DNA of 62,320 nt, filler included, from Basidiobolus ranarum (lineage: Eukaryota), in assembly GCA_040143965.1 (NCBI GenBank). It is 8 parts of 8 records of this genome, joined end to end, with 100 filler letters (N's around TTAATTAATTAA, not from the genome) between each part and the next. Parts side by side here need not be neighbours in the genome. Positions count along the whole stretch, not along the records: positions 1 to 7,726 come from JASJQH010007950.1; 7 more parts are not named here. The stretch is one strand, 5' to 3'. The position numbers and the translations under genes are program-made. The notes beneath the pieces are model-generated. The model searched no databases and was not told the origin of the DNA. It saw only the letters and a program-made list of their open reading frames with translations. Within the stretch, counting starts at the first letter, position 1. Every line of letters begins with the position of its first letter. Shown here piece by piece: positions 2 to 50,992 of this stretch.

Positions 2-559
2 ATTAAGGACGAGGCCTCTGAATCTCAACATACCAGGGATGATGGTGACACAAGCCCACATTCTGACAGCGACGCAAGTCCTTACACCAATAGTGATACC
101 CCAACCCCAAGCCAAGACCCAAGCACGACTGGTCCAGTTACTGACACCACTGGCACACCTACAAACACTACTACCCCTACTAATGGAACCACAAGTGTTG
201 GAACTGGAAAACTTGAGTTTCGTTTCCACAATGGGCAATGTACTGACTGGGCTGATGCTCGATATGCTCAACTCACCGGCCATCATGTCAGCTGGTCTGG
301 GGACGCACGGACCTGGGCGAGCGCGGCAAAGAAAGCCAAAGGGTGGACAGTATCACCAACACCAAAACAGCCGAGCATCATTGTGTTACAACCTGGAGTT
401 CAAGGAACCGGTAGTGCTGGACATGTTGCAGTTGTAGAGAAGATTCTATCACCTACCAGTGTATCCACAAGCAATTACAACTACAACGGTGGGCCTTATA
501 TCAAAAAAACTGTGACATTCAAGACGGGAAATGGGGTTGATTTTATCTGGTACACTTAG
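2..559 (+). CDS. CHAP-domain (cysteine/histidine amidohydrolase) protein, 5'-truncated by the window edge; paralog of 1334..1996
   Basis: Frame +2 is open from base 2 to TAG 557-559. An acidic, Thr/Pro-rich linker leads into GKLEFRFHNGQCTDWADARYAQLTGHH...PSIIVLQPGVQGTGSAGHVAVVE...SNYNYNGGPY...FIWYT*, with catalytic Cys (GQCT) and His (GHVAVVE). The ORF track lists the wrong frame (39..437). Confidence 0.9.
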   Translation: MKDEASESQHTRDDGDTSPHSDSDASPYTNSDTPTPSQDPSTTGPVTDTTGTPTNTTTPTNGTTSVGTGKLEFRFHNGQCTDWADARYAQLTGHHVSWSGDARTWASAAKKAKGWTVSPTPKQPSIIVLQPGVQGTGSAGHVAVVEKILSPTSVSTSNYNYNGGPYIKKTVTFKTGNGVDFIWYT

Positions 560-1333
560 GTCAATGCACAATCAGCAGCAGTTCTTCTGAATTTATTCAA
601 ATCTGTACGAATTTGATTTTTTACCAATTCAAAAACACAAGTAGTTCAATCCGACACTGGCTGTCAATTTTCAACAAGAAACAAATCAGTAAATGATATT
701 CATGTATCACAAATAAATCTCGAATGAAAACCAATATTCTGAAATCTTCAATGTTGCATTAACGCCTGTTTACTAATGAGGGTCCACATTTTAGCGAAAT
801 TAATAATTAAAGTACCGGTGAGATGTGAAACAACCTAGTGGTATTAATACCCTGTTTTAACAAAAAAAGGCTTAGAGCTATCGCAACTAAGTGATATTGC
901 TACCTTACGACCTAATTGGGCAATTCTTGTTTAAAATCAAAATGAAATGGAGGTTGAGTCACGCACTTTTTAGGCCCCATACCCTTGAACTGACTGGAAT
1001 AGAGACAAAGAAAACATGATTGATGTACAAGACTAAAGGATATTAACTCATAAAGGGATGCTGCAGAGAATAACCACAAAATAGGCTTTACCCGATCCTA
1101 ACAGTACGCTTCCACATCTAAATCATTTCGACCTTGAAGTATTAGTAGAGGATTACCAATTCAGCCCCACCTTTTTGAAAATCAGTTTCCGAAATCTAGT
1201 CCTGAAGGTACAAATGCCATTAATTATCAATAGCAAGGGCACTTGTTCATCGGTCTATATAAACTCGAGTAGACTCGGAATATTAATGTTAATCATAAGC
1301 TATCTTTCTGGCAAAGTAGTAACTCTAAGAATC

Positions 1334-1996
1334 ATGTACTCAACCATCCATTTCTGTGCTTTGGCGATCATTCTATCTAGCTTTCTGGTGCAAGCTCTGC
1401 CTGTGCCTGACGGTTATTCTACGGATCAGATTGCGACAAAGATCAAACCTCGTTATTACTATTCTTACGAAAATACTTGGAGCTCCAAATGGGGCGATTA
1501 TAATGGAGATAACACTAACCACCAGCCAAAGAAACCCACATCTAGGCCAAAGAAACCGGTATCTACATCAAAAACCCCCAGTAAAGGTTACAACAAGTCA
1601 CATACTCCGAAAGTTAGCAATAACTCTGGTACTGGTGATATTGGGAAACTCGTGTTTCGTTTCCACAATGGACAATGCACCGATTGGGCTGATGCTCGTT
1701 ACGCTCAGCTTACTGGTCACCATATAGAGTGGTGGGGTGATGCTCGAGTTTGGGCCAGTAAGGCACAAAACACTCCAGGATGGTCGGTATCAACAAAAGC
1801 GATGAAGCCAAGTATAATTGTCTTACAGTCTGGAGTTCAGGGGGCAGGTAGTGCTGGTCATGTTGCTGTGGTTGAAAATATCGAATCGAATGGAGATGTA
1901 TACACAAGTAACTATAACTATAATGGAGGTCCCTACATCAAGAAATTTGCAACGTTTAGACCGGGCAATGGTGTCAGCTTTATTTGGCACAATTGA
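1334..1996 (+). CDS. Secreted CHAP-domain protein (putative peptidoglycan amidase/endopeptidase), intronless
   Basis: ATG 1334 gives a signal peptide (MYSTIHFCALAIILSSFLVQA-LP), a Lys/Pro/Ser linker, then a CHAP domain with GQCTDW and GHVAVVE. TATATAAA lies at ~1256-1263. Confidence 0.9.
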   Translation: MYSTIHFCALAIILSSFLVQALPVPDGYSTDQIATKIKPRYYYSYENTWSSKWGDYNGDNTNHQPKKPTSRPKKPVSTSKTPSKGYNKSHTPKVSNNSGTGDIGKLVFRFHNGQCTDWADARYAQLTGHHIEWWGDARVWASKAQNTPGWSVSTKAMKPSIIVLQSGVQGAGSAGHVAVVENIESNGDVYTSNYNYNGGPYIKKFATFRPGNGVSFIWHN

Positions 1997-5019: not shown

Positions 5020-6840
5020 TTAGTGCTTCTTCTTCTTTCCCTCAAATCCTGGTCTAGATTTCTAGTGAATTGATTGCATGTTTAGATTTCTGAATATAAA
5101 AGAAGCAAGTATATCAAATACTAACCTTCTTGTCTTTGCCCTTGTCTTTACCCTTGGTATCTTTACCCTTACCCTTGCCCTTATTCTTCTTGGCGTCAAT
5201 TCTAGCTTTGAGATTCTCGTTTCTCTTCTTTTGCTTATTCGCAATAGAATCAGCAATTTGTGTCTTACGTTCAGTCCTACAATGGCACATTAGAATGGAT
5301 AGCACAAAGACCAAATAAAATAAGAGTCGCAACATACCATTCCTTATTGCTCTTCTTCTTCTTAACCTCATCACGCTTGATGGTCTTCTTGAGAAGCTTG
5401 GGGTCATCCTTAAGTTTAACACCGGCAGACATCTGGAGAGCCTTCTTCCATTGTTCATTTTCTATAATCTTTTCGGCCTATTAAGATGAAGAAAACAGTG
5501 GTTAATATAGGCAATTTCATACTTATAATTATTGCGTGTTCTCATTACCTTCTCCTTGTCTGTGGCCTTCAACTTATCCAGCTTTTCTTTCTTGGCTTCG
5601 ACCTGGTGAATTCAATTAATATTTTGATGAGTTAAATACCGGCTACTAATAATGCATACCTGTTTCAAAGCAATAGCGGCAGAGACGGGTCCCTTCTTCT
5701 TCTTGGCAGGGCCATCAAATTCGAATTTACTGAATGCAATATCACCATCCATGTTGATGGCATTGGAGGAGGTACCCACTGAAGTAGACTACAATAAAAA
5801 ATCACACATTAAAATAAGTTTCAGAATTTGAAAAGTCCAGGAACACTAACTTTAGTATTCGATTCTGAGATGATTTCCTCAGTACCGGTCTTCATCTTCT
5901 TCTGTTCTTGTTTGCGCTTCTCCTTCTTTTCACTCTTTCTCTTCTTTCTACTTTCTAAAATACCATCTCGTGTCTCACCATTGCTGGAAGGAACCTTTCT
6001 ATTGGCACGGAGTTCAGCGATACGGTTTTGAAGACGAGCTTTGAGATCTTCAATAGAGGAGCTGGGAAGAGGTTGGACAATTTCTATAAAGGAAATCCGG
6101 TTAGATTTTGGAGAATAGGGACATGAGTAGGAATAAGCTGTGTACCTTCGGTTTCCTCATCACTTGATTCCTGTTGAGCTGAATCAACCTCAATTTTAGA
6201 GTCTTCATCTACGGACATGGCGTCCTCATCGAGTTCGGCCTCGGATTCTGAGTCTTCGGATTCATCCTCAGCAACATTTGCTTTTTCAGCTTGTATTTCA
6301 AGGATAGACTTATGGTTTTCAGGATCGAGCTAAAATGAAAAAATATTATATTAATAACTAGTACTAAAAACACCACTCAGCAATGAAATAGTAGGAGCTA
6401 ATGAGCGGTGTCACAAAATATATGTAGGGTAATCAGGCTCTCATCGAGGAATTTACCTTGGCTTTCTTGGCCTTTTTGGTTCTCTCTTTAATTTCTTGTC
6501 TTGGGGCACGTTTGTTTTTGTTGTGCTGATATTTTGTGTTCTGGAAAAAAGAAAATGCGCATGTTTAGTAAAGGTTCATCAATCAAAAGCTGTTGGCATG
6601 GATTAGGAAATCCCCTCATTAATTTGAAAGTACATACCTCCTGAGAATCTTCCGAGATGTAATACTTGGAAGGTATCAGACTTAATAGAGAGTCAAAAGC
6701 TTGACTGTATTCTTGAAGGCGATCCTATAAAGCAAATAAGGATTAAGACCATAGCTCCTTGAGTGGGAAGAATACATATAGGTATATATGCTTCTATAGT
6801 GTCGCGAAGTTACCTCAAGTCCGGAAAGTGAATATGCCAT
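5020..6840 (-). CDS. RRP14: RRP14/SURF6 nucleolar ribosome-biogenesis protein, multi-exon
   Basis: ATG 6840 (MAYSLSGLE) is followed by several GT-AG introns. The exons include AKKAKLDPENHK, an acidic tract, IAFSKFEF, KLKDDPKLLKKT, KQKKRNENLKAR and the SURF6 C-terminal signature KSRPGFEGKKKKH* (TAA 5020-5022). Confidence 0.88.
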
Positions 6841-7726
6841 AGTTAACGGTATAGAAGAACTCAAGTAAAACAAAAGCACTACTAAAGTTTCTCTTTGTAA
6901 AATCAACCAGTCCGAGAAAAAAAAACTATTGATTCATAGATTTCTATTATGGGTACATATTAATCTTCTACATATCAACTATATCATATCAATTTTTACA
7001 AAGAAAAAAAACTCAAACTATTTTTTTTTCCAGAAAAATATGAGTGATGAGACTGGCTTTTTAGGAAAAAAAATTTCGATCAACGAGAGAGATTCTGGAA
7101 TATCTTAATATAGAAAACTCAGCAGAATCACTTGGATATTTGGGAAGTTTTCGTGACAAGGTAACATCCATTCCTGAACAAATCCTTTCATTTGGCTGAC
7201 AGAAAGCCAACAGGAAGTTCGGGCAGCTCCTTGTCAATAGCACCTCTGTTATCATGTTGTATTCGATATTCATTGACTGAAGATGTAATACTTACTCAGC
7301 ACTGTTATTGGCAGACGATGTTTCTTCAACATCGAAATTCATTGCATTGATCACCTGTTTTTCTCAACCTTTGCACGTAGGTGTTGGCGATCAGTTGGGT
7401 AATTGTGCGAATATACCATTTACGAAATATGGCTGTCGTGTCACGAACTTCTCCAGTTTGATTGGTATTAAGTAGTGACTTTGTTTTTACACTGTTCCCA
7501 TTATGTGCTCACCCACTATATTGAAAACTGAGGCATCTGAGAAAAAGAAAAATAAATCTTTACCCAATTGTAGCATTGTTGTTGGTGGATTCAAGGCATA
7601 ATACACTTCAAATATTATGGGATGGATTTACGGTAGATCCTACAAGTCCAAACTTTATGAAATCCCTTGACCTTTACTGTGATAAAACCGGACCCAACTA
7701 TAATGCATATATGAATGAGGCTATGG

Positions 7727-10480: not shown

Positions 10481-11590
10481 CTAGACTTCAGGTTGATCAT
10501 GAGTTGCACAATGTATGCCTCCGCCACCTGTTGCGATATAGTCGATGTTCAAGGGAACAATCTGTCGTCCAGGGAACACTCCTCGAAGAATACCCTGGGC
10601 CGCCCGATCCGCTTCTACATCCCCAAATTCTGGCATGATGATGGCTCCATTGGCGATGTAAAAATTAGCATAGGATGCCAAAAATGAGTCTCCGAACACC
10701 TCTAGGGACACTTCATCAGTCTCTCCTTCGGCAGGCATCCCTCTGATTTTTTCATAATCAGGTTCTGGTAGTTGTATGATCTTCAGTCGGTTCCCCTTTG
10801 CATCAGTAGCTTGCGTCAAGACTTGCATAGCTTGAGTATATTGCTGGGCCCAGATAGCAGAGTCTGGGTCATTCTTTTTAGCTGGCCCTGGACGACTAAC
10901 TACCACAACGCCTGGTGCAACAAATCGAGCCAAGGTATCCACATGCGAGTCTGTGATATCCTTTCCTTTGACCCCCTTGAGCCAAATGATCTTCTGAACC
11001 CCAAGCTCAGACTTAAGAGTAGCCTCAATCTCCTTCCGACTCTTACCAGGATTCCGGTTGTTATTCACGATACTACTCTCAGTCAGTAGTAGAGTTCCCT
11101 GGCCATCAGTCTCGATGGCTCCTCCTTCAGCAATCAGACTAGATTGGAACCTAGGAAGTTTGTAGTGAGCCAGATAGCTGCGGGATACACTTCCATCATT
11201 CTTGCGGTACTTGAGAGGAATTTTCTTCCCCCAGCCATTGAAGTTGTAATCGACCCCAACTGTATCTTTTCCTTTCGTAAGAAACAAAGGTATAGTGTCC
11301 CGAGTCCAAAAATCATCGACTGGAATTGGGATCACCTCGATCTTACTTCCCAATACTTTTTTAGCATGGTGGACTTGATCGGGTGAGACTAAGACTTGGA
11401 CTGGTTCAAAGCGAGAAATGGCTTGGGCCAGTTGAGCAATATTTCTTTGAGTGCCAGTGAGTAGATTTCGCCATATGTATCTCGAAGCAGGCCAAGCCAT
11501 GATGGTACGCTTGTGAGACTCCCATTCAGGGGCAATTCGGTAGCCTTCAGGGATCTTGGATAGAGACTTGTTTAAGCTTGGATGATTCAT
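10481..11590 (-). CDS. aguA: Agmatine deiminase / PPAD-family (AguA-like) enzyme, intronless, bacterial-type
   Basis: 369 aa. Motifs: PEWESHKRTIMAWP, DDFWTRD, DYNFNGWG, EGGAIETDGQGTLL, TDSHVD, ASYANFY, and C-terminal GGGGIHCATHDQP with the catalytic Cys. Confidence 0.93.
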   Translation of the reverse strand: MNHPSLNKSLSKIPEGYRIAPEWESHKRTIMAWPASRYIWRNLLTGTQRNIAQLAQAISRFEPVQVLVSPDQVHHAKKVLGSKIEVIPIPVDDFWTRDTIPLFLTKGKDTVGVDYNFNGWGKKIPLKYRKNDGSVSRSYLAHYKLPRFQSSLIAEGGAIETDGQGTLLLTESSIVNNNRNPGKSRKEIEATLKSELGVQKIIWLKGVKGKDITDSHVDTLARFVAPGVVVVSRPGPAKKNDPDSAIWAQQYTQAMQVLTQATDAKGNRLKIIQLPEPDYEKIRGMPAEGETDEVSLEVFGDSFLASYANFYIANGAIIMPEFGDVEADRAAQGILRGVFPGRQIVPLNIDYIATGGGGIHCATHDQPEV

Positions 11591-12376
11591 TCTATAGTTT
11601 GTAAAGTAGTTACAAGGTGATGAGATATGGTATATATAAGGATCAGTGAAAATTCTGTCCTGGGATTCTGTCCTTGCGGTTTATCCACTGCCAAGACTCC
11701 AATTTGTCAACTGGCCAACGAATGGTCTAATCGCATTTCCACCCCTTTGCACAAATCCCACGGTTGGTATAGATATAAGGTTTGGTGAGGTTTTGTTACC
11801 AGTTTGACAGTTTATTGGATACTGGTGACGCAGCCAAGCACGTGCCACCATACATGCAGAATCTATCTTCCATTATTGGATGCATTGTTTGTGGGTGGAT
11901 TATGGACGAATGGATGATTGAAATACTGGCTGAATGATCGGTAAAAGAAATCTCATTAACAGGTATGCATTGCCAATTAGCTATATCTCCTCCAATTAAA
12001 CTATTAACTGATGTATGGTAAAGCGTATGGTAAAGCATAGGCATATTGCTAAAATTAACGGGTATACTAAGTTCCCTTGCTCAAGAAAGTGTTTACTCCC
12101 ATTACTAGAAAATATAATACATACAACTTGAACAATACAAATATCAATGGGAAAGAAAATTCTGACCTCAAATATCTTGTTTCTCTGATCAGAACAATGA
12201 GCAGCTTGCAATTTTTATTTTCGATACTAGAAAGCAGGATAATTGAATGGTGCGAGTTTCTTTTTTTATGTGAAGTATCAGCCCGATCTGAGCATTGAAA
12301 TGGAGAGTAACACTGCTAAAGAGAGAAGTTACAGAATCCAGGTCCAATTAGAGAATAATCTTTTACCTCAGCCTGA

Positions 12377-24170: not shown

Positions 24171-27100
24171 ATGAATTCAAAGCCCAATCCCAACAAAACT
24201 ACACCTCAGTTTACTTACGCTCAATTAGCTCAGAAAGCCAAAAACTCTACTTCTTCTGCATCTCCTCAACCGCAATTGGCTAAACCTTCTCAGAGCAAAA
24301 CTGAAAAACCCCCCTCTCAACCTAAAAAACCTCAACCACCTACTGCATCTAATGGCAATGGTTCTCAACCTGAGCCCATACCTAATGCTTGGGTAAAGAA
24401 GCCGGTCATTTCAGCTTCTAAAGGTTCTGGTGTTCAATTTCCTACTCGCCAACCCTCTACCGGCGGTGCTCCATCCATTCAATTTGGTTCAATCAACCAG
24501 ACCACAACTGATAATGACTCTCCTTCAGATCCCATTGTTTCTGGTAAAGACTCGTTGAAAGAGGCCCCAACGCAACAACAAGAGCAGCCTGCTGTTGGAA
24601 TGAAGTCTACCAAGCCTGTATTTGGATCTTCCAATACCAAGAACTCTGAAGGCTCCAAAGCTTTTAAGCCTCAGCCTGAGGCTATCCCTCAAAATATTAC
24701 TATTCCAGCTAACATTGAGCCTAAACCGTTTCAGCAATCCCCTCGTCCACATCCAATACTTTCACCCAATGCTTCCTATTCTCCTCACCCGCTTCAACCT
24801 CAGGAATTTTCCCCTCGACAAGGACACATGCCACATCCTTCTAGTCAACCTCATATTCGTCCACATCATTACCCCAATTCTCCTATGTCAGGACCTATAG
24901 TTCCTGGTTCACCCTCTATGACTGGCAGTCCTATCATGCCTCCCGCTTTCTCTCCTCAGCAAAGACCAAGAGACCAACCTATGCATAGTCCAATCCAACC
25001 CTCTATGTCACCTACTATGGCTCAGGTAAAGTATTCATTCCAACCATTCATCTCCAGGATATAAATATATATGGTTTATATGGAATTCTTATTGACTGAT
25101 TCTACCTTCATTCTAGTATCCTTACCAATATCCTGGCTATCAACCTCAATATGATCCTAACAATCAACAAGGTTTCTATCGTCCAGTATACACTGTACCA
25201 TATCCAGTACCTCCCCATATTCCCGTTATGCAACCGGGTGTTCAACCTCGTATGAATACTGGAGCTCCTACATTCGTTCCACCTCAATCTAATAGAGCCA
25301 TTAAAATCGTGAATCCAAAGACAGGTGGTGTTGTGGATCTTAAAGGTTCACCTCCAGTTGGAAATAAAGAATTACCAGTCACTTCGACATCCATTCCTAA
25401 TAATGAGGAAAAGAATGGTAAAGAAGAGAAAATCTCTGAACCAAAAAAAGATTTCACCTTACCCAAGAAAAACCCCTCTAAAGCTATTCCAATCATTAAT
25501 CCTGCTATGAAAGAATCAGAAGATTCAATTAATACTTCCAACATTTCTGAGACTCTTACCACTCCAAAATCTGATGAGGTGAAGACTCCCGAAATTGGTG
25601 ATAAGCCTATCCCCACTGTGGAGGAAGATCAAGTTAAATCTACATCACCTATAAACGAAATATCTGATGATTCCGTCAAAGATGAAAAAAAAATGGACGA
25701 CGCTTTACCTGAAGATAATCTAGCTTCTAAAACTTCTAAAGTATCTCAGTTACTTGATTCTCAAGCGTCCAAGGTGGAAGAGAAAACGATTACCGAAGAT
25801 ACTGTGAAAGAGGATATTGTAGTACCTAGTACTATTGAGGAAAGCGAGAAGGACGATGCTGTAGTTCCTAATGTTATCGAAGAAACCAAAGCGGATGATG
25901 TTGTAGTCCCTAATGTTACTGAGGAAACCCAGAAAGATGATGTTGCTGAGAAAAAAGATGATGTCACTGATACAAAGATTTCCAACAATGAATCTACTAC
26001 ACCTCAAGCTAATATTGTTGAAGATACCAAAGAAGAATCATCAAAAGAGCCTAGTAAGAGTGTTTCTTCTAACATTGAAGAACAAGCCAAACCTTCTGAA
26101 AACGGAAGCGACTCAAAACCCACCGATACTAGTAATTCGGTCCCTGCTAGTGTTCTTAACCCAGATCAACTCAATCAAGTCCCTTATCCTCCCAACATCA
26201 ATGCACCTAAGAGTATAGCCAATTCTGGTACCCTTAAGTACGATACATCTTTCTTGCTTCAATTCAAAGATGTTTGTAAAGATAGACCTAATAATATGCC
26301 AACTTTGGAGTCTCTTGGTATTGAAGAGAACTCTCGTGATGATAAGAGATCTTCAAGCAGTGCTGGTAGACGCGGGGGACGAGGTGGTAGCAGCGGACCC
26401 AGAGGCGCTAATACCTTCCAAGGTGGCGATATGGGCTCATTTAAGCATACTCCTAAGACTAGTGAAGAGAGATTTGCTGCTTCTCAAGGCGCAGGAGGCC
26501 GTGGTTTTAATCGTGGCTCTATGGGTGGTAGATCTGCTAGTGGAAGCAATAATATGCCTAACATGGGTAGTCGTGAGGGTCGTGGATCTCGTTCTGGACG
26601 TCATAAGGGTAAGGGCGATCGCCAACAACAAGGAGGACCTACTATTCCTCTTGACGAAGTTGCTCCTCTTGCATTCTCTAAAGAACGCTGGGTTCCCAAT
26701 GCCAATGTCGCTTCTTCAACTGATGAGGAAAACAACAAGAAGGAGATTCTTTGTCGTAAGGTTAAAGGTCTTTTGAATAAGTTAACTCTTGAAAAATTCG
26801 AATCTATCTCCGATAAAATCATCGACTTCGCTAACCAAGCTACAGAAGAAAAGAACGGATCTACATTGCAAACTATAATTCAACTTGTCTTCGAAAAAGC
26901 CACTGATGAGCCTAACTTCATTATGGTGTATGCCTCCCTTTGCAGAAAGATGATGGACAAGATCAGCCCTGATGTTATGGACGAAAGCATCAGAGGTAAA
27001 GACAATAAACCCGTTTCTGGTGGTGCTTTATTCCGCAAATATCTTCTCAGTAGATGCCAAGAAGAATTCGAAAAGGGATGGAAAGTTGACCTGGCTGATG

Positions 27101-28578
27101 GCGCATCTTTAGATAATCCTAATGCCTTGTTGACCGATGAATATTATGTAGCCGCAAAGGCTAAACGTAGAGGTCTTGGGTTGATGGCATTTATCGGTGA
27201 ACTTTTCAAATTACAAATGCTTACAGAGCGTATTATGCACGAATGCATCAAGCGACTTTTAAGTAATGTTCAAACTCCAGAGGAAGAGGAGACAGAAAGT
27301 CTCTGTAAGTTGATGAGTACTGTTGGTAAACAACTCGACCGTAAGGAAGCGAAGAACTACATGGATGCTTACTTCCAACGTATGAAGGAGATGTCAGTCA
27401 ACAAAAATTTAAATAGTAGAATTAGATTTATGATTCTGGACGTCATCGATTTACGTTCTAACAAATGGATCCCACGTCGTGAGGTTGCAGGACCTAAGAC
27501 TATCTCCCAAATTCATCAGGATGCACAAAAGCAAAAAGAGGAAACTGCAGAGATGTTGAAGAAAACTGCCAGCTCTGGTGGTAGATTGCCCCACATGAAT
27601 CAACAACTTTCACGTTCTAATTCGGGACGTCGCGACAGACGTGGGCCTCCTGGCCAAGGCCCAGATGGTTGGAATACCGTTGGTAATGCCCCTTCATCCC
27701 GAAAAACTGGAGACTTGACTGCGTTTGGCAATTTGGCCCGTAGTAAGAGCGGTGCCAATGTTAGTCTTGGCCCTGGTGGAGGCGTTTTCGGTGCTCTTGG
27801 TGGTGGAAGTAAAGGATGGAAAACGGTAGATGGCAAACCCAAAGAAGAGCCTAAACCTTCTTCTGGTAATATGTTCAGCGCTTTGATGTCCTCTGAAAGC
27901 CCCAAGAAGGATGACAAATCCTTTGAACGTAAGCCTCTGAATCTGCGCCCTAGAAGTGTTCTGGAAACTCCACCTGAGCCTGTTAAACTCACCAAAGAAG
28001 AAGTCGAGTCGAAGATCAAAGCGATGGTGGAAGAGTATCTCTCCGTTAAGGATGTTCCTGAAGTTACAACGTGTATCAAAGAACTTGATAGCTCGGAATC
28101 CCACTCCATGGTTGTTTCCGAGTTCATCAACGAAGCTATTGACAAGAAAAAGGCTGATATTGATGCTGTGATCAAACTGTTCAAGATATTATCTTCTGAA
28201 GATGTGATCAATCGTGAGTCATTTGTTGCAGGTATACTTGAAGTCATGGAGTACTTGGAAGACATAGCTATTGATGTACCTCAAGCATATGAACACTTGG
28301 CTCTTATGATGTCCGGAGCCCCTATTGAATTGGAGGATCTTCCCAAGATTCTCGAGACTCTTTTATCCGGTTCTGGTTCCAATCCACCAGCAAACAAAGT
28401 TTTGGGCAACTACCTAAAGGCACTTTCATCAGATATTGGGCCGGAAAAGCTCACCGAGAAGTTCCAAAAATCTGGTTTGGAATGGTCCCAAGTATTACCT
28501 AAACATCAACATTCCGAAGATAAAATCGAGGAATTTATGAAGAAATACGATCTGGAGATTGTACCAAAGTCCGATTAA
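24171..28578 (+). CDS. TIF4631: Translation initiation factor eIF4G (2 exons, ~1438 aa)
   Basis: Exon 24171-25025, intron 25026-25116, exon 25117-28578 (in frame). eIF4E-binding motif YDTSFLL, MIF4G domain (VKGLLNKLTLEKF...FIGELFKL...SRIRFMILDVIDLR) and an MA3 domain. Confidence 0.95.
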
Positions 28579-48251: not shown

Positions 48252-49565
48252 TTAAATTACTATTTTTTCTAAGGAATTGACCAAGTTTTGCAGATCACTC
48301 TTGATGTTGTGTGCATATCTTACAACTCTATCTCGAGTGTCCAAAACTTCAACGGTCTCAGTGTATGGATTGTAACGAACATCAAATGGTCGGTTTAGAC
48401 CACGAGCAAATTCTCGCACCTTATCTTTAGCATCCTTGAAGCTCTCAGCGACAAAGTAAACTGGTTGATATTCTGTAATGGGATACTTCTGTACTGCGGC
48501 TTTGGAGGGATCAAATGGTATCTTTGTGGGCTTATCTGACAAACAGTATTCCAACTCTCCAAATGACGACAGTAAACCAGCACCGAACGCCTTAACTTCA
48601 TCACCTTGTCTACAAAGACCGAACTCTACTGTGAACCAATAAATGGTGGAAAGTTTTTCAATATCTTCATCACTAGCACCAAGAGAGGCGAGACCAATTT
48701 CTTGTGAGAAATCGGCAAAATCTTGATTTGCGAACAAAGGAACATGTCCCAAGAGCTCATGACAACAGTCTGGCTCAGGTGTGTATAATGGCTTTGAGTG
48801 ATGACGGATGTATTGTGTAGAATGGAATACCCGGAAAGCTAGCCCGTTTAAGAAATCTCTTGATGTCAGTAAACCCATGACTGGGCGAAGTGAGAAGCCA
48901 GTACAATCTTTCAAGAAGCGGGAGATGTCATCGATCTGTGGGATGTTATCCTCGCGATATCCGCAGTTTTCAATCAACAATGGGAACACATATTGATGCT
49001 CACGACAGGCATGAGATGGATACATGGCTGTGAGCTGGCGAAATACTGCCCCCCATGTGGCAATTTCCTGATCGGTGTACTTGATTCTAGGCAATGGCTG
49101 GCCATGTTGGTAAGTACGAGCGATACGAGTAATCTCAGCACGACGTGCACGGTAAACAGGGTCGTGGGCACCCGGATGGTCGGAATTCAACTCTTCGCCC
49201 ATCTCCAATACCTTTTCGGCGAAGCTATCCAAATCGGACTTCTTTCTTGGGAACCAAGGAACACTGTTACCAGCTGCGTTAGATGCACCGGTGCTGACTA
49301 CTTTAACGTTGCCAGATACACCTTCAAGAGATTTTACAACGGTTTGTACTGTCTCCAAATTATCGGTGAAGAAGTCGACGAAGAAATCGTAATCCCAACC
49401 ACTAGTCTTACTAGGACGTGACTCGATACGAGTCAAGGAAACGTTCAAAGCATTGATAGCTTTGAGGGCTTCATCGAGAACACCAACTCTGTCGTTAACT
49501 GAGAATAGTAAGGTGATACGCATGGAAGCTCCGTTGGTGGTGGCTTTTGGTGCAGTTTTATCCAT
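48252..49565 (-). CDS. PAH: Phenylalanine-4-hydroxylase (biopterin-dependent, N-terminal ACT domain), intronless
   Basis: ACT domain with LTRIESRPS; VPWFPR, DHPGAHDPVYRARR, FHSTQYIRH, PEPDCCHELLGHVPL (Fe ligands), YWFTVEFGL, GAGLLSSFGE. Confidence 0.96.
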   Translation of the reverse strand: MDKTAPKATTNGASMRITLLFSVNDRVGVLDEALKAINALNVSLTRIESRPSKTSGWDYDFFVDFFTDNLETVQTVVKSLEGVSGNVKVVSTGASNAAGNSVPWFPRKKSDLDSFAEKVLEMGEELNSDHPGAHDPVYRARRAEITRIARTYQHGQPLPRIKYTDQEIATWGAVFRQLTAMYPSHACREHQYVFPLLIENCGYREDNIPQIDDISRFLKDCTGFSLRPVMGLLTSRDFLNGLAFRVFHSTQYIRHHSKPLYTPEPDCCHELLGHVPLFANQDFADFSQEIGLASLGASDEDIEKLSTIYWFTVEFGLCRQGDEVKAFGAGLLSSFGELEYCLSDKPTKIPFDPSKAAVQKYPITEYQPVYFVAESFKDAKDKVREFARGLNRPFDVRYNPYTETVEVLDTRDRVVRYAHNIKSDLQNLVNSLEKIVI

Positions 49566-50992
49566 CGTGAAGAATAAGTTTTTTGAGAGAGGGGGGATTG
49601 AGATTGTGTCAACTAGAACAGTAAGGTTGATTGCCTGACAAAAAATAAATTGGAGGCTGGTGCCTGTTTATAAGAAGATTGCCATGAATCATGTGGACGT
49701 GAGAAGTTGAAACAACAGTAGGGTGATATTTTTGAAGGGTTGGTGTTTGCTCAGCATTAGAATGTCAAATGTATATAAATGTATTGACGAATGAGAATTT
49801 CTGATCCATGTTGCTGAGGATTGATCGTTGACAAGATCGCACATGATCTATGGATAATATAGCTCGCTCAAGGATGGACTGCGGCTCATTCTCTTTTAAA
49901 TCCATAATGATGGGAAAATAATCCTAGATCGTGTGAATTTTAACTCTTCATTATGTCGTGGTAAAGAGTTGGTGAAAAGGTACCCCTGCTATGAGTTGTG
50001 TGGATTGTGGGAGAGTTCCCACAAGTCAAATACAGTACTTCCTATAGAAAGTGTTCGAAAAGAAAAATCCCTATTGTGCGCATAGTTTATCTTCAAGCAC
50101 AGTTTGGTGGACAACGGGTTGATACTGGATTTTCTCATTTGGTTCGTTCACAAGGAGCTTCATTTTTATTACAATACAAGTGAACGTTGTTGTTTCAGTT
50201 TCATCTGATCTATCAAGGGCTAAAAAGCTCCACTGCTTGGAGCCGATTCGGTAAACATTCGGCTTGTCGCACAAGGTGAATACCGGTTTTTATTTGGTGA
50301 TAGACTCAAAGAGGAATACTTAGATGTCATGAAATGAGATGAAAAAAGAATCCAAGTCACTAAAATGAATACACCTTCCTTAATCTGTCCCTCTTCCGTC
50401 AGGGAACTCATTGCTCAAAAAAAGGAATTCACGTGCTCACTTTCTCAGGGTCAGATATTTTCTGGAGGAATTACAAGTAATTCGAGCTAAACTCTAATCT
50501 CTAACCCAGATTAACAGTTTTTGCTGGCCAATAGCAGGGGTTGTTAGGAATTTAATCTAGTACAAATATTCACCTAAATAACACGATATTATCTTCATTA
50601 TCGAAACATCTTCCTACATATAAACCAGGGTTCTGTTATTGTCAGCTGAGGATTTATCTGCCTGAATGGATGATTATTTTCTCAGACATGACTCCTTTCC
50701 ACAATACAATCTGCATTGAGCATCTCAGAGAGCCAAGGTTACAATGGCAAAAATGGCCGGAATGTTACAGGCAAAAAACCCAATCACTTCAAAGCTAGCG
50801 GGGTGATATATTCGTGAGTATTTTAGAAGATATGTACATTTACAATTGTAATTAGACTGAGAATATGTCAAGCAGGAGAAAACCACATAAAGATGTGTTG
50901 TTTTGGATAGTTATGGTGGTATAGAATTTGAAGTTTTAATTTATTAGCGTAATTTGTTGACATCAAATGGAAATAATAGATCTCTGCTGATA

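What the first reader, a model, noticed from the sequence alone, without database searches (positions are those of the whole stretch)
2..1996. Tandem array of bacterial-type CHAP peptidoglycan-hydrolase genes in a fungus
Seen: two head-to-tail, intronless genes share a near-identical CHAP domain (FRFHNGQCTDWADARYAQLTGHH...GHVAVVE...SNYNYNGGPY) with intact catalytic Cys and His, but have different linkers (acidic Thr/Pro versus basic Lys/Pro). Copy 2 has a eukaryotic signal peptide and a TATA box. Copy 1 is absent from the ORF track and runs off the window, so the array may be larger. Established: CHAP domains are bacterial/phage cell-wall amidases and endopeptidases, and fungi lack peptidoglycan. 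Inference: a horizontally acquired, duplicated, secreted antibacterial effector family. From memory the domain resembles Ktedonobacteria/Chloroflexi CHAP proteins (unverified).
Basis: partly seen in the sequence, partly recalled or inferred. Interest (0 to 1): 0.85.

Follow-up and report, generated by a model that had tools for sequence, protein, structure and literature searches.

The report
Bacterial-derived secreted CHAP hydrolase genes, Basidiobolus
Two neighbouring genes in this Basidiobolus fungus encode secreted enzymes of a bacterial cell-wall-cutting type, part of a large gene family that an ancestor of this fungal group apparently took from soil bacteria and probably uses to break open bacteria.

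Summary
Window 2-559 (+, cut by the window edge) and 1334-1996 (+) are two head-to-tail, uninterrupted CHAP genes (PF05257, E 2e-14 and 2.8e-13). They are 74% identical over 116 residues, and both keep the Cys, His and Asn catalytic residues.

The window is eukaryotic. Its eIF4G exon is 100% identical to a Basidiobolus ranarum protein.

The pair is not an isolated novelty. It belongs to a family of at least 17 genes in B. ranarum and 13 in B. meristosporus. Relatives occur in Conidiobolus, Entomophthora and Massospora.

In a mixture-model ML tree all 30 fungal sequences form one clade (99/97) inside CHAP proteins whose named members are all Chloroflexota, mostly Ktedonobacteria. The exact bacterial sister is unresolved, and an AU test does not reject a near alternative (p 0.46).

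The best reading is an old bacterium-to-fungus transfer, probably a single one into an ancestor of Basidiobolus plus Entomophthorales. The bacterial membrane anchor was then replaced by a signal peptide and a low-complexity linker, and the family expanded in tandem. The function, a secreted peptidoglycan hydrolase acting on bacteria, is inferred and not shown. Expression could not be tested.

This is a new member of a known kind, comparable to GH25 lysozymes, Trichomonas NlpC/P60 and Saprolegnia CHAP. I found no paper that describes it.

The parts
2..559 (+). CHAP gene copy 1. It is a 3' fragment of 185 codons plus TAG; the N-terminus with the presumed signal peptide lies beyond the window edge.
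   Evidence: Open frame. PF05257 E 2e-14. Sister to B. ranarum K7432_005995 (P0009, 276 aa with a signal peptide) at 100/97.
2..205 (+). Copy 1 acidic Ser/Thr/Pro-rich linker (residues 1-68 of the fragment)
   Evidence: Net charge -9, 43% S+T, 12% P.
206..556 (+). Copy 1 CHAP catalytic domain: Cys codon 239-241, His 422-424, Asn 473-475 and 479-481
560..1333 (.). Intergenic spacer (774 bases, GC 0.35). It holds AATAAA at 712 after copy 1 and TATATAAA at 1256-1263 before copy 2.
   Evidence: Both motifs are weak evidence on their own.
1334..1996 (+). CHAP gene copy 2, complete and uninterrupted (220 codons plus TGA)
   Evidence: PF05257 E 2.8e-13. Aligns end to end with B. ranarum K7432_005994 (221 aa, 61% identity, 100% coverage), so no intron is needed.
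1334..1396 (+). Predicted signal peptide (residues 1-21, ...FLVQA / LP)
   Evidence: Hydrophobic core with KD 2.66. AF2 helix 3-17. The same pattern occurs in paralogues P0003, P0005 and P0009. No SignalP was available.
1397..1642 (+). Copy 2 basic Lys/Pro/Ser/Thr linker (residues 22-103), disordered. It contains a 21-nt tandem repeat at 1525-1566 (PKKPTSR/PKKPVST).
   Evidence: Net charge +7. pLDDT below 50 for residues 27-106. Repeat D2.
1643..1993 (+). Copy 2 CHAP catalytic domain: Cys115 codon 1676-1678, His176 1859-1861, Asn193 1910-1912, Asn195 1916-1918
   Evidence: pLDDT 83-98. Foldseek top hits are staphylococcal and phage CHAP peptidoglycan hydrolases, E down to 3.3e-08. Conservation.
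5114..6724 (-). Context: RRP14/SURF6-type ribosome-biogenesis gene split over several frames. It is the nearest recognisable eukaryotic gene.
   Evidence: PF15459 E 1.4e-07 at 6488-6724 and PF04935 E 2.7e-06 at 5114-5461.

Best explanation
The two genes belong to a fungal family of secreted papain-fold CHAP amidases/endopeptidases that descends from a membrane-anchored CHAP protein of a Ktedonobacteria-like (Chloroflexota) bacterium.

The gene entered the fungal lineage long ago. It most probably entered once, into a common ancestor of Basidiobolus and the Entomophthorales. It then lost the bacterial cytoplasmic tail and transmembrane helix and gained a cleavable signal peptide plus a fast-evolving low-complexity linker. 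In Basidiobolus it multiplied by tandem and segmental duplication, to at least 17 genes in B. ranarum.

The proposed mechanism is as follows. The protein is exported through the ER. The C-terminal domain uses a Cys115-His176-Asn193 triad (copy 2 numbering) to cut a peptide or amide bond of bacterial peptidoglycan. This lets a gut, dung or soil fungus, or an insect-killing relative, lyse surrounding bacteria for competition or food.

Shown here: gene structure, domain, fold, conserved catalytic residues, linkage to eukaryotic genes, the family's size and distribution, and its nesting among Chloroflexota proteins.

Inferred: a single transfer event, secretion, peptidoglycan as substrate, and the ecological role.
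For: Domain and fold:
- PF05257 scores above cut-off in both copies and in 29 of 29 other fungal family members scanned.
- The AF2 domain has pLDDT 83-98.
- The Foldseek best hits are 5t1q (S. aureus amidase), the phi812 CHAP domain (9euf, 9eum), 2k3a, 2lrj, PcsB, LysK CHAPK and LysGH15. 21 hits have E <= 0.001.
- PDB sequence hits: 2k3a at 3.6e-11, and others.

Catalytic residues:
- Cys and His are both kept in 33 of 35 fungal domains, including both window copies.
- Position 193 is Asn or Asp in 35 of 35, and Asn195 is kept in 35 of 35.

Selection: pN is 0.155 against a saturated pS of 0.80 between the two copies.

Eukaryotic setting:
- eIF4G, Sec63, and RRP14/SURF6 with introns lie in the same window.
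- The eIF4G exon is 100% identical to a B. ranarum protein.
- GC3 of the CHAP genes is 0.40 and 0.395. Six host coding stretches give 0.33-0.43. Nine bacterial homologues give 0.41-0.67 over the whole frame and 0.40-0.71 over the CHAP part.

Donor:
- In an exhaustive HMMER search of 1.84 billion representatives, the 13 hits at E <= 1e-30 are the window protein and Basidiobolus clusters. Scores then drop from 134 to 118 bits.
- Every taxon-named bacterial relative is Chloroflexota, mostly Ktedonobacteria: 6 of 6, 7 of 7, 5 of 5, and 3 of 3 loci.
- 45 of 301 sampled Chloroflexota genomes match at E <= 1e-5, and 22 of them at E <= 1e-20.

Tree (IQ-TREE LG+C20 PMSF, 89 rows x 124 columns):
- All 30 fungal rows form one clade, 99/97.
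- Basidiobolus 99/83; Entomophthorales 98/80.
- (Conidiobolus,(Massospora,Entomophthora)) 99/83.
- Rooted on two distant Chloroflexota CHAP paralogues, the fungi fall inside the bacterial radiation.
- Five B. ranarum/B. meristosporus pairs have support of 100/92 or higher.

Architecture:
- 27 of 35 fungal proteins have a signal-peptide-like N-terminus.
- 13 of 14 bacterial relatives examined have no such N-terminus. They have an internal transmembrane helix at residues 52-157 (alignment).
Against: - Function was not tested. No cell-wall-binding module (LysM, SH3b, PG_binding) occurs in any of the 29 other fungal proteins scanned.
- A single origin is not secure. The AU test does not reject a tree that joins Basidiobolus with Ktedonobacteraceae P0101 and excludes the Entomophthorales (delta lnL 1.41, p-AU 0.464).
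- The bacterial sister changes between analyses: P0107 in the quick tree and P0101 at 44/89 in the careful tree.
- With Basidiobolus removed, the Entomophthorales move next to P0062/P0166 with 0 support.
- The backbone is poorly supported, the Entomophthorales branches are long (0.97-2.35), and the bootstrap had not fully converged.
- Only about 120 columns are available.
- Low-GC Ktedonobacteria-type homologues have GC3 of 0.40-0.47, so composition does not discriminate strongly.
- Only the best 150 of 619 representative hits were visible. More distant CHAP genes in other fungi cannot be excluded.
- 8 of 35 fungal proteins lack a signal-like N-terminus. Some of these are probably truncated gene models.
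Confidence: 0.6

Rival explanations
1. There were two or more independent transfers. Basidiobolus and the Entomophthorales (or Conidiobolus and the Entomophthoraceae separately) each acquired a CHAP gene from closely related Ktedonobacteria, or one fungus passed it to another. Their grouping in the tree would then reflect related donors or long-branch effects.
For: The AU test does not reject Basidiobolus + P0101 without the Entomophthorales (p 0.464). The Entomophthorales alone attach elsewhere with 0 support. Their branches are long and Massospora has deviant composition. The linkers share no similarity between the groups.
Against: The joint ML tree gives fungal monophyly at 99/97, and FastTree on 244 rows gives 89. 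The internal order matches the accepted relationships. Long-branch attraction would be expected to pull the long Entomophthorales branches toward the 3.9-long outgroup branch, not toward the short Basidiobolus stem. All fungi share Asp/Glu after the QCT motif, where the 12 bacterial sequences of alignment A1 have Tyr (10), Asp (P0107) or Trp (P0206).
Confidence: 0.25
2. The enzymes are secreted but do not act on peptidoglycan. They would be cysteine peptidases or amidases for another substrate, such as host or insect proteins, fungal wall glycoproteins or small amides like glutathionylspermidine. Alternatively they trim peptidoglycan fragments to blunt host immune sensing rather than to kill bacteria.
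For: The CHAP family also contains non-wall amidases: E. coli Gsp amidase and trypanothione synthetase appear among the weaker fold hits (ranks 32-47). No wall-binding domain was found. The carriers include insect pathogens.
Against: The best sequence and fold matches are all peptidoglycan hydrolases or lysins. The bacterial sister proteins are extracytoplasmic and membrane-anchored, and one related cluster carries LysM. Gsp-type amidases are intracellular, whereas these proteins carry signal peptides.
Confidence: 0.15
3. The genes are bacterial contamination or a chimeric assembly and are not fungal genes.
For: The domain is otherwise almost wholly bacterial.
Against: The genes lie on one 62-kb stretch with eIF4G, Sec63, RRP14/SURF6 with introns, thioredoxin and WD40 genes. 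GC3 matches the neighbouring genes. The N-terminus is a eukaryote-type signal peptide instead of the bacterial tail plus transmembrane helix. Paralogues occur in independent assemblies of two Basidiobolus species and three other fungal genera, on contigs of up to 316 kb. The closest bacterial protein is at most about 60% identical.
Confidence: 0.01
4. The family was inherited vertically from an early eukaryotic or fungal ancestor, with massive loss everywhere except the Entomophthoromycotina. The Ktedonobacteria would then be the recipients.
For: The rooted position of the fungal clade rests on a weakly supported backbone.
Against: Fungal sequences form one clade confined to one subphylum among the 150 best representatives. 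The bacterial subfamily is diverse, multi-copy and present in 22 of 301 sampled Chloroflexota genomes at E <= 1e-20. It sits within a family that is overwhelmingly bacterial (control genomes). The 89/92 branch places fungi with 49 bacterial rows, apart from the Dictyobacter-type rows and the outgroup.
Confidence: 0.03

Closest known systems
Ktedonobacteria / Chloroflexota CHAP ('Peptidase C51', 'surface antigen') proteins, e.g. from Dictyobacter, Thermogemmatispora and Ktedonospora formicarum
   Same: Same CHAP subfamily: 47-62% identical over the domain. Same C-terminal position of the domain, the same Cys/His/Asn residues, and the shared motifs GQCT.WA, PSIIVLQPGVQGAG, GHVAVVE and YTSNYN. 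They are also multi-copy and often in tandem triplets.
   Different: The bacterial proteins carry a 50-150-residue cytoplasmic tail, one transmembrane helix and a conserved 'AQ.ATATAVTQDGYD' linker. The fungal ones have a cleavable signal peptide and unrelated low-complexity linkers. Fungi have Asp/Glu after QCT and a shorter NYNGGPY loop.
Staphylococcal and phage CHAP peptidoglycan hydrolases (SsaA-like 2k3a/2lrj, S. aureus 5t1q, phage K LysK CHAPK 4csh, phi812 hub 9eum)
   Same: Same fold and catalytic Cys-His arrangement: Foldseek E 3e-08 to 2e-05, rmsd 1.9-4 A over 110-125 columns. phmmer E 3.6e-11 to 5.9e-05.
   Different: Only 20-32% identity. The position that aligns with Glu in 2k3a is Asn193 here. 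That this Glu is the third catalytic residue is recalled, not taken from a call. There is no SH3b, LysM or amidase partner domain. Bond specificity is unknown.
CHAP family of the oomycete Saprolegnia parasitica (PMC3681718; passages read)
   Same: A eukaryote with a secreted, repeatedly duplicated CHAP family (7 genes) attributed to acquisition from bacteria.
   Different: A different eukaryotic kingdom, with no donor named there. Whether it is the same CHAP subfamily was not tested here. No Saprolegnia protein was recognised among the best 150 representatives, most of which are unnamed.
Other antibacterial wall hydrolases moved from bacteria to eukaryotes: GH25 lysozyme (PMC4241558), Trichomonas NlpC/P60 (PMC6299479, PMC12612818), tick Dae/Tae amidases (recalled)
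   Same: The same evolutionary logic: a bacterial peptidoglycan hydrolase is captured, given a eukaryotic secretion signal, duplicated, and used against bacteria.
   Different: Different enzyme families and recipients. For these papers only the search listing and abstract starts were seen. The Dae/Tae case is recalled from memory. Activity has been shown for those cases and not for this one.

Membership tests
CHAP domain (Pfam PF05257, MEROPS C51) | Significant match to the family profile above the curated cut-off | tested here: met
   50.6 and 54.3 bits against a cut-off of 26.
CHAP domain (Pfam PF05257, MEROPS C51) | Invariant catalytic Cys at the N-terminus of a helix, and His in a beta-strand | tested here: met
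   C115 and H176 are invariant in the 29-sequence alignment. Both are present in 33 of 35 fungal domains. Helix 115-127 and strand 176-183 appear in the model.
CHAP domain (Pfam PF05257, MEROPS C51) | Third polar triad residue (Asn, Asp or Glu) about 17 residues after the His | tested here: met
   Position 193 is Asn (30) or Asp (5) in 35 of 35 fungal domains. It aligns with a Glu in 2k3a. The catalytic role of that Glu is recalled, not tested.
CHAP domain (Pfam PF05257, MEROPS C51) | Papain-like alpha+beta fold | tested here: met
   The AF2 domain has pLDDT 83-98. 21 PDB chains match at Foldseek E <= 0.001; all of those listed are CHAP enzymes.
CHAP domain (Pfam PF05257, MEROPS C51) | Amidase or endopeptidase activity on peptidoglycan | not testable with these tools
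   Needs a zymogram or muropeptide assay.
Horizontally acquired bacterial gene in a eukaryote | Eukaryotic sequences nested within a bacterial clade | tested here: met
   The fungal clade (99/97) lies inside the Chloroflexota radiation when rooted on distant paralogues. One separating branch has 89/92, and the rest of the backbone is weak.
Horizontally acquired bacterial gene in a eukaryote | Patchy, restricted distribution among eukaryotes | tested here: inconclusive
   Among the best 150 of 619 representative hits, only Basidiobolus, Conidiobolus, Entomophthora, Massospora and one Conidiobolus-like metagenome protein are fungal by name or tree position. Lower hits were not visible and eukaryotic genomes could not be scanned.
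Horizontally acquired bacterial gene in a eukaryote | Physical linkage to bona fide host genes; not contamination | tested here: met
   RRP14/SURF6 lies 3-5 kb away, and eIF4G, Sec63 and others are in the same window.
Secreted effector | Cleavable N-terminal signal peptide | tested here: inconclusive
   A hydrophobic core with a small-x-small site (VQA) is present in copy 2 and in 27 of 35 family members by a simple hydropathy rule. No dedicated predictor or secretome data were available. The N-terminus of copy 1 lies outside the window.
Secreted effector | Expressed, and induced by bacteria | not testable with these tools

The most novel reading that the evidence does not exclude
The CHAP family is a single, ancient Ktedonobacteria-to-fungus transfer shared only by Basidiobolus and the Entomophthorales. 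If so, it is a rare genomic change that ties the contested genus Basidiobolus to the Entomophthoromycotina rather than to the Mucoromycota. It would also mark the origin of a bacteriolytic enzyme arsenal of 13-17 or more paralogues with diversified charged linkers. Gut-dwelling Basidiobolus would use this arsenal to shape the herptile gut bacterial community.
Probability: 0.3. Interest if true: 0.7.

Novelty: new member of a known kind. Interest (0 to 1): 0.55.

Why it matters
Fungi have no peptidoglycan, so a large, conserved, secreted CHAP family under purifying selection points to direct enzymatic action on bacteria. Its carriers live among dense bacterial communities: amphibian and reptile guts, dung, soil and insect cadavers. 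This would add a protein-based weapon, or a feeding tool, to the secondary metabolites already attributed to bacterial gene transfer in Basidiobolus (PMC7466969). The family offers natural lysin scaffolds with eukaryotic secretion signals. If the single-transfer reading holds, it also gives an independent character for the disputed placement of Basidiobolus. That placement is called an open problem in PMC12592215 (passage read).

Tried and rejected
- Whole-genome copy count: no genome is held for the window. Copy numbers therefore come from protein-database hits and are minima.
- Further copies in the window: tblastn found none beyond the two. No third gene corresponding to K7432_005993 lies downstream.
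- Extra domains: Pfam found nothing but CHAP in the 29 other fungal proteins scanned. LysM occurs only in one bacterial relative.
- TATA box as evidence: the motif is no more frequent than chance.
- Composition as evidence of transfer: the genes are fully ameliorated, and low-GC donors overlap the host range.
- dN/dS: dS is saturated, so only pN and pS are given.
- More Entomophthorales relatives: a search with the Conidiobolus domain returned only itself and two metagenome proteins, 3 hits in all.
- Protein Atlas: all nearest clusters are bacterial. The best structural cluster is Chloroflexota, and no eukaryotic cluster of 50 or more members appeared.
- Literature searches:
  - 0 papers for Basidiobolus + CHAP.
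  - 0 for Conidiobolus + 'CHAP domain'.
  - 0 for Entomophthoromycotina + HGT + peptidoglycan.
  - 0 for 'CHAP domain' + Zoopagomycota.
  - 1 irrelevant paper for Entomophthora + CHAP.
  - 5 irrelevant papers for PF05257 + fungal.
- The main texts of PMC7466969 and PMC11291939 contain no 'CHAP' or 'peptidoglycan'.
- The one held supplement of PMC11291939 has 0 occurrences of CHAP, PF05257 or Peptidase C51.
They may list these genes.
- Contamination and ancient vertical inheritance were considered and rejected (see rival explanations).
Full report
OBSERVATION

The window begins inside an open frame (bases 2-559, + strand, 185 codons, TAG at 557-559). A second frame follows after 774 bases of AT-rich spacer (ATG 1334 to TGA 1994-1996, 220 codons).

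Both frames match Pfam CHAP (PF05257) well above the 26-bit cut-off: E 2e-14 and 2.8e-13. Their C-terminal 116 residues align without gaps at 74% identity (E 5e-63). At nucleotide level the domains are 70% identical. Synonymous differences are saturated (pS 0.80) and pN is 0.155. This is therefore an old duplicate pair kept under purifying selection.

Copy 1 has net charge -9 and 43% Ser+Thr. Copy 2 has net charge +7, is Lys/Pro-rich, and contains a 21-nt tandem repeat encoding PKKPTSR/PKKPVST.

tblastn finds no further copy in the 62 kb window. Copy 1 lacks its 5' end because of the window edge.

Copy 2 starts with MYSTIHFCALAIILSSFLVQA/LP. This is a hydrophobic core (KD 2.66) that AlphaFold models as a helix and that is followed by a small-x-small site. 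A TATATAAA lies 71 bases upstream, and AATAAA hexamers follow both stop codons (712 and 2106). For TATATAAA the count was checked and is at chance level, 5 found against 5.9 expected; AATAAA was not tested against chance. I give neither motif any weight.

WHAT ORGANISM

The window is eukaryotic. It holds eIF4G (MIF4G, MA3), Sec63/DnaJ, thioredoxin, WD40 and C2H2 genes. An RRP14/SURF6 gene lies 3-5 kb from the array and is split over several frames. Residues 540-1080 of the long eIF4G exon are 100% identical to a Basidiobolus ranarum protein. The next best hits, at 63%, are a second B. ranarum protein and a B. meristosporus protein. I therefore take the window to be B. ranarum or something nearly identical to it. 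No whole genome was held for the window.

THE FAMILY

A word-indexed search returned 94 proteins in all, the two window-encoded ones among them. The best named ones are 13 B. ranarum and 13 B. meristosporus 'Peptidase C51 domain-containing' proteins. After them come bacterial CHAP proteins at 41-62% identity over the domain.

An exhaustive HMMER scan of 1.84 billion representatives gave 619 hits at E <= 1e-3. Of these, 13 have E <= 1e-30: the window protein itself, ten clusters already named as Basidiobolus, and two named. Bit scores then drop from 134 to 118.

With the two further B. ranarum clusters, B. ranarum holds at least 17 genes: 15 named plus the two of the window. B. meristosporus holds at least 13. 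These are minima, because the database is clustered and length-filtered.

Locus tags and shared contigs show other arrays. These include K7432_005993/4/5 on one contig, K7432_005503/4, and in B. meristosporus three proteins on one contig plus two pairs on two further contigs.

In the tree, window copy 1 is sister to K7432_005995 (100/97) and copy 2 is sister to K7432_005994 (100/93). The window pair and that array are therefore duplicated arrays within one species. Five B. ranarum/B. meristosporus pairs have support of 100/92 or higher. The family had thus already diversified before those species split.

BEYOND BASIDIOBOLUS

Name look-ups of lower-ranking representatives showed fungal proteins from three more genera:
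- Massospora cicadina (P0197)
- Entomophthora muscae (P0226, P0227)
- Conidiobolus coronatus (P0194)

There is also a Conidiobolus-like metagenome protein (P0213). Except for the Massospora entry, which is a partial protein without its N-terminus, each has a signal-peptide-like N-terminus, a long low-complexity Pro/Gln/Lys/Asn linker and a C-terminal CHAP domain. All of these fungi belong to the Entomophthoromycotina.

DONOR

Every bacterial relative that carries a taxon name is Chloroflexota, mostly Ktedonobacteria:
- Thermogemmatispora, Ktedonobacteraceae and Ktedonobacteria bacterium brp13: 6 of 6.
- Dictyobacter, Ktedonobacteraceae and Chloroflexota: 7 of 7.
- Dictyobacter and a LysM-CHAP Chloroflexota protein: 5 of 5.
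- A Chloroflexia MAG, a Ktedonobacteraceae MAG and Ktedonospora formicarum: 3 of 3 genome loci.

K. formicarum alone has 14 PF05257 matches.

In 301 sampled Chloroflexota genomes, 45 match the window domain at E <= 1e-5. Of these, 22 match at E <= 1e-20, often as tandem triplets. One of the 45, G041, is an unpublished genome with a weak match, and no other claim rests on it.

The Atlas's nearest structural cluster is also Chloroflexota (TM 0.90).

PHYLOGENY

A FastTree of 244 domain rows puts the 30 Basidiobolus rows in one clade (95). That clade is sister (89) to the five Entomophthorales-type rows.

A careful IQ-TREE run used LG+C20+F+G4 PMSF on 89 rows and 124 columns. It was rooted on two distant Chloroflexota CHAP paralogues. 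It gives:
- all 30 fungal rows as one clade, 99/97;
- Basidiobolus 99/83;
- Entomophthorales 98/80;
- (Conidiobolus,(Massospora,Entomophthora)) 99/83, which is the accepted species order.

The fungal clade lies inside the bacterial radiation. A branch of 89/92 separates it and 49 bacterial rows from the Dictyobacter-type rows and the outgroup.

The cautions are real:
- The bacterial backbone is weak.
- The immediate sister differs between runs: P0107 in one, P0101 at 44/89 in the other.
- The bootstrap had not fully settled.
- The Entomophthorales branches are long.
- An AU test does not reject a tree that holds Basidiobolus with P0101 and excludes the Entomophthorales (delta lnL 1.41, p 0.464).
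- With Basidiobolus left out, the Entomophthorales attach elsewhere with zero support. With the Entomophthorales left out, Basidiobolus sits next to P0107 (85).

A single transfer is therefore the best-supported reading but is not proven. Two transfers from related donors remain possible.

STRUCTURE AND CHEMISTRY

With a 29-sequence alignment, AlphaFold2 models residues 108-220 of copy 2 at pLDDT 83-98. It models the 27-106 linker as disordered and residues 3-17 as a helix.

The Foldseek best matches are peptidoglycan hydrolases:
- S. aureus 5t1q (E 3.3e-08; rmsd 1.9 A over 111 columns for chain D);
- the CHAP 'lytic cleaver' of phage phi812;
- S. saprophyticus 2k3a and the SsaA-like 2lrj;
- PcsB;
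- LysK CHAPK and LysGH15.

Gsp amidase and trypanothione synthetase come much lower. Sequence search of the PDB agrees (2k3a, E 3.6e-11).

Cys115 and His176 are invariant in alignment A1, and Asn195 is nearly so. Position 193, which aligns with a Glu of 2k3a, is Asn or Asp in all 35 fungal domains. Cys and His are both kept in 33 of 35. The exceptions are P0012 (His to Tyr) and P0029, whose N-terminal part is missing or misaligned.

WHAT CHANGED ON ENTERING THE FUNGUS

The bacterial relatives have a 50-150-residue N-terminal tail, one transmembrane helix and a conserved linker before the CHAP domain. Of 14 examined, 13 show no N-terminal signal-like segment. The fungal proteins have a short cleavable-looking signal peptide instead (27 of 35) and unrelated, rapidly changing low-complexity linkers.

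GC3 of the two genes (0.40 and 0.395) lies within the range of six neighbouring host coding stretches (0.33-0.43). Bacterial homologues range from 0.41 to 0.67 over the whole frame (0.40-0.71 over the CHAP part).

FUNCTION

I infer a secreted Cys-His-Asn amidase or endopeptidase that cuts peptidoglycan of surrounding bacteria, either to compete with them or to feed on them. The grounds are:
- the fold neighbours;
- the extracytoplasmic bacterial ancestors;
- the signal peptides;
- purifying selection;
- the expansion in fungi that live among dense bacterial populations.

None of this was tested. No wall-binding module was found. The bond cleaved cannot be read from sequence.

COMPARISON AND NOVELTY

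The kind of event is known. Precedents are:
- the secreted, duplicated CHAP family of the oomycete Saprolegnia parasitica (PMC3681718, passages read);
- GH25 lysozymes moved across domains (PMC4241558, listing only);
- Trichomonas NlpC/P60 (PMC6299479 and PMC12612818, listings only);
- tick Dae amidases (recalled).

The proteins themselves are in public databases with automatic 'Peptidase C51' labels. I found no paper that describes them:
- Six full-text searches returned nothing relevant.
- The two main papers on gene transfer in early-diverging fungi do not mention CHAP or peptidoglycan in their main text.
- The one held supplement of PMC11291939 has no CHAP entry.

I therefore class this as a new member of a known kind.

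The most interesting open possibility concerns the placement of Basidiobolus, which PMC12592215 calls unresolved (passage). A single shared transfer would link Basidiobolus with the Entomophthorales.

VERDICT

Transfer from Chloroflexota is well supported (about 0.9). A single ancient event is likely (about 0.6). A secreted peptidoglycan-hydrolase role is plausible but untested (about 0.65). Interest is moderate.

Noticed in passing
window 25117-28578 (+): The eIF4G exon is 100% identical to one B. ranarum protein (K7432_012422). A second B. ranarum eIF4G (K7432_010686) is only 63% identical, the same distance as the B. meristosporus copy. This hints at an old large-scale duplication or divergent subgenomes, and matches the duplicated CHAP arrays.
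   Followed up: no
window 10481-11680 (-): An uninterrupted 399-codon frame has a very strong Porphyromonas-type peptidyl-arginine/agmatine deiminase match (PF04371, E 1.3e-106). It is a bacterial-type enzyme in one exon and may be another acquired gene.
   Followed up: no
window 48252-49667 (-): A single 471-codon frame encodes a biopterin-dependent aromatic amino-acid hydroxylase with an ACT domain (PF00351, E 1.7e-171). From recall, this enzyme is uncommon in fungi.
   Followed up: no
G204:C39, G244:C54, G236:C1, G141:C1, G033:C1 (loci L026, L029, L037, L039, L040): In the Chloroflexota genomes the closest CHAP homologues also sit in head-to-tail triplets spaced about 1.2-1.5 kb apart. Tandem amplification of this gene has therefore happened independently in donor and recipient lineages.
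   Followed up: partly
window 1457-1474 (copy 2 residues 42-47) and paralogues P0003, P0004, P0005, P0009: A conserved 'P-R-Y-Y-(Y)-S-Y' motif follows the signal peptide in copy-2-like paralogues. Other paralogues have RR or KR sites at the same place. This may be a pro-peptide processing site.
   Followed up: no
proteins P0017, P0020, P0021, P0028: One Basidiobolus subclade carries a Cys-rich N-terminal module ('CPDGNGLYCG...') between the signal peptide and the linker. It has no Pfam match and could be a binding module.
   Followed up: no
window 1525-1566: A 21-nt tandem duplication inside the copy 2 linker (81% identity) encodes PKKPTSR/PKKPVST. The linker appears to grow by short repeat expansion, as in the Conidiobolus and Entomophthora proteins.
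   Followed up: partly
window 7061-7291 (-): A weak inverse-autotransporter beta-domain hit (PF11924, E 7.4e-4, 19.6 bits, below the 22.3 cut-off). It is most likely chance.
   Followed up: no
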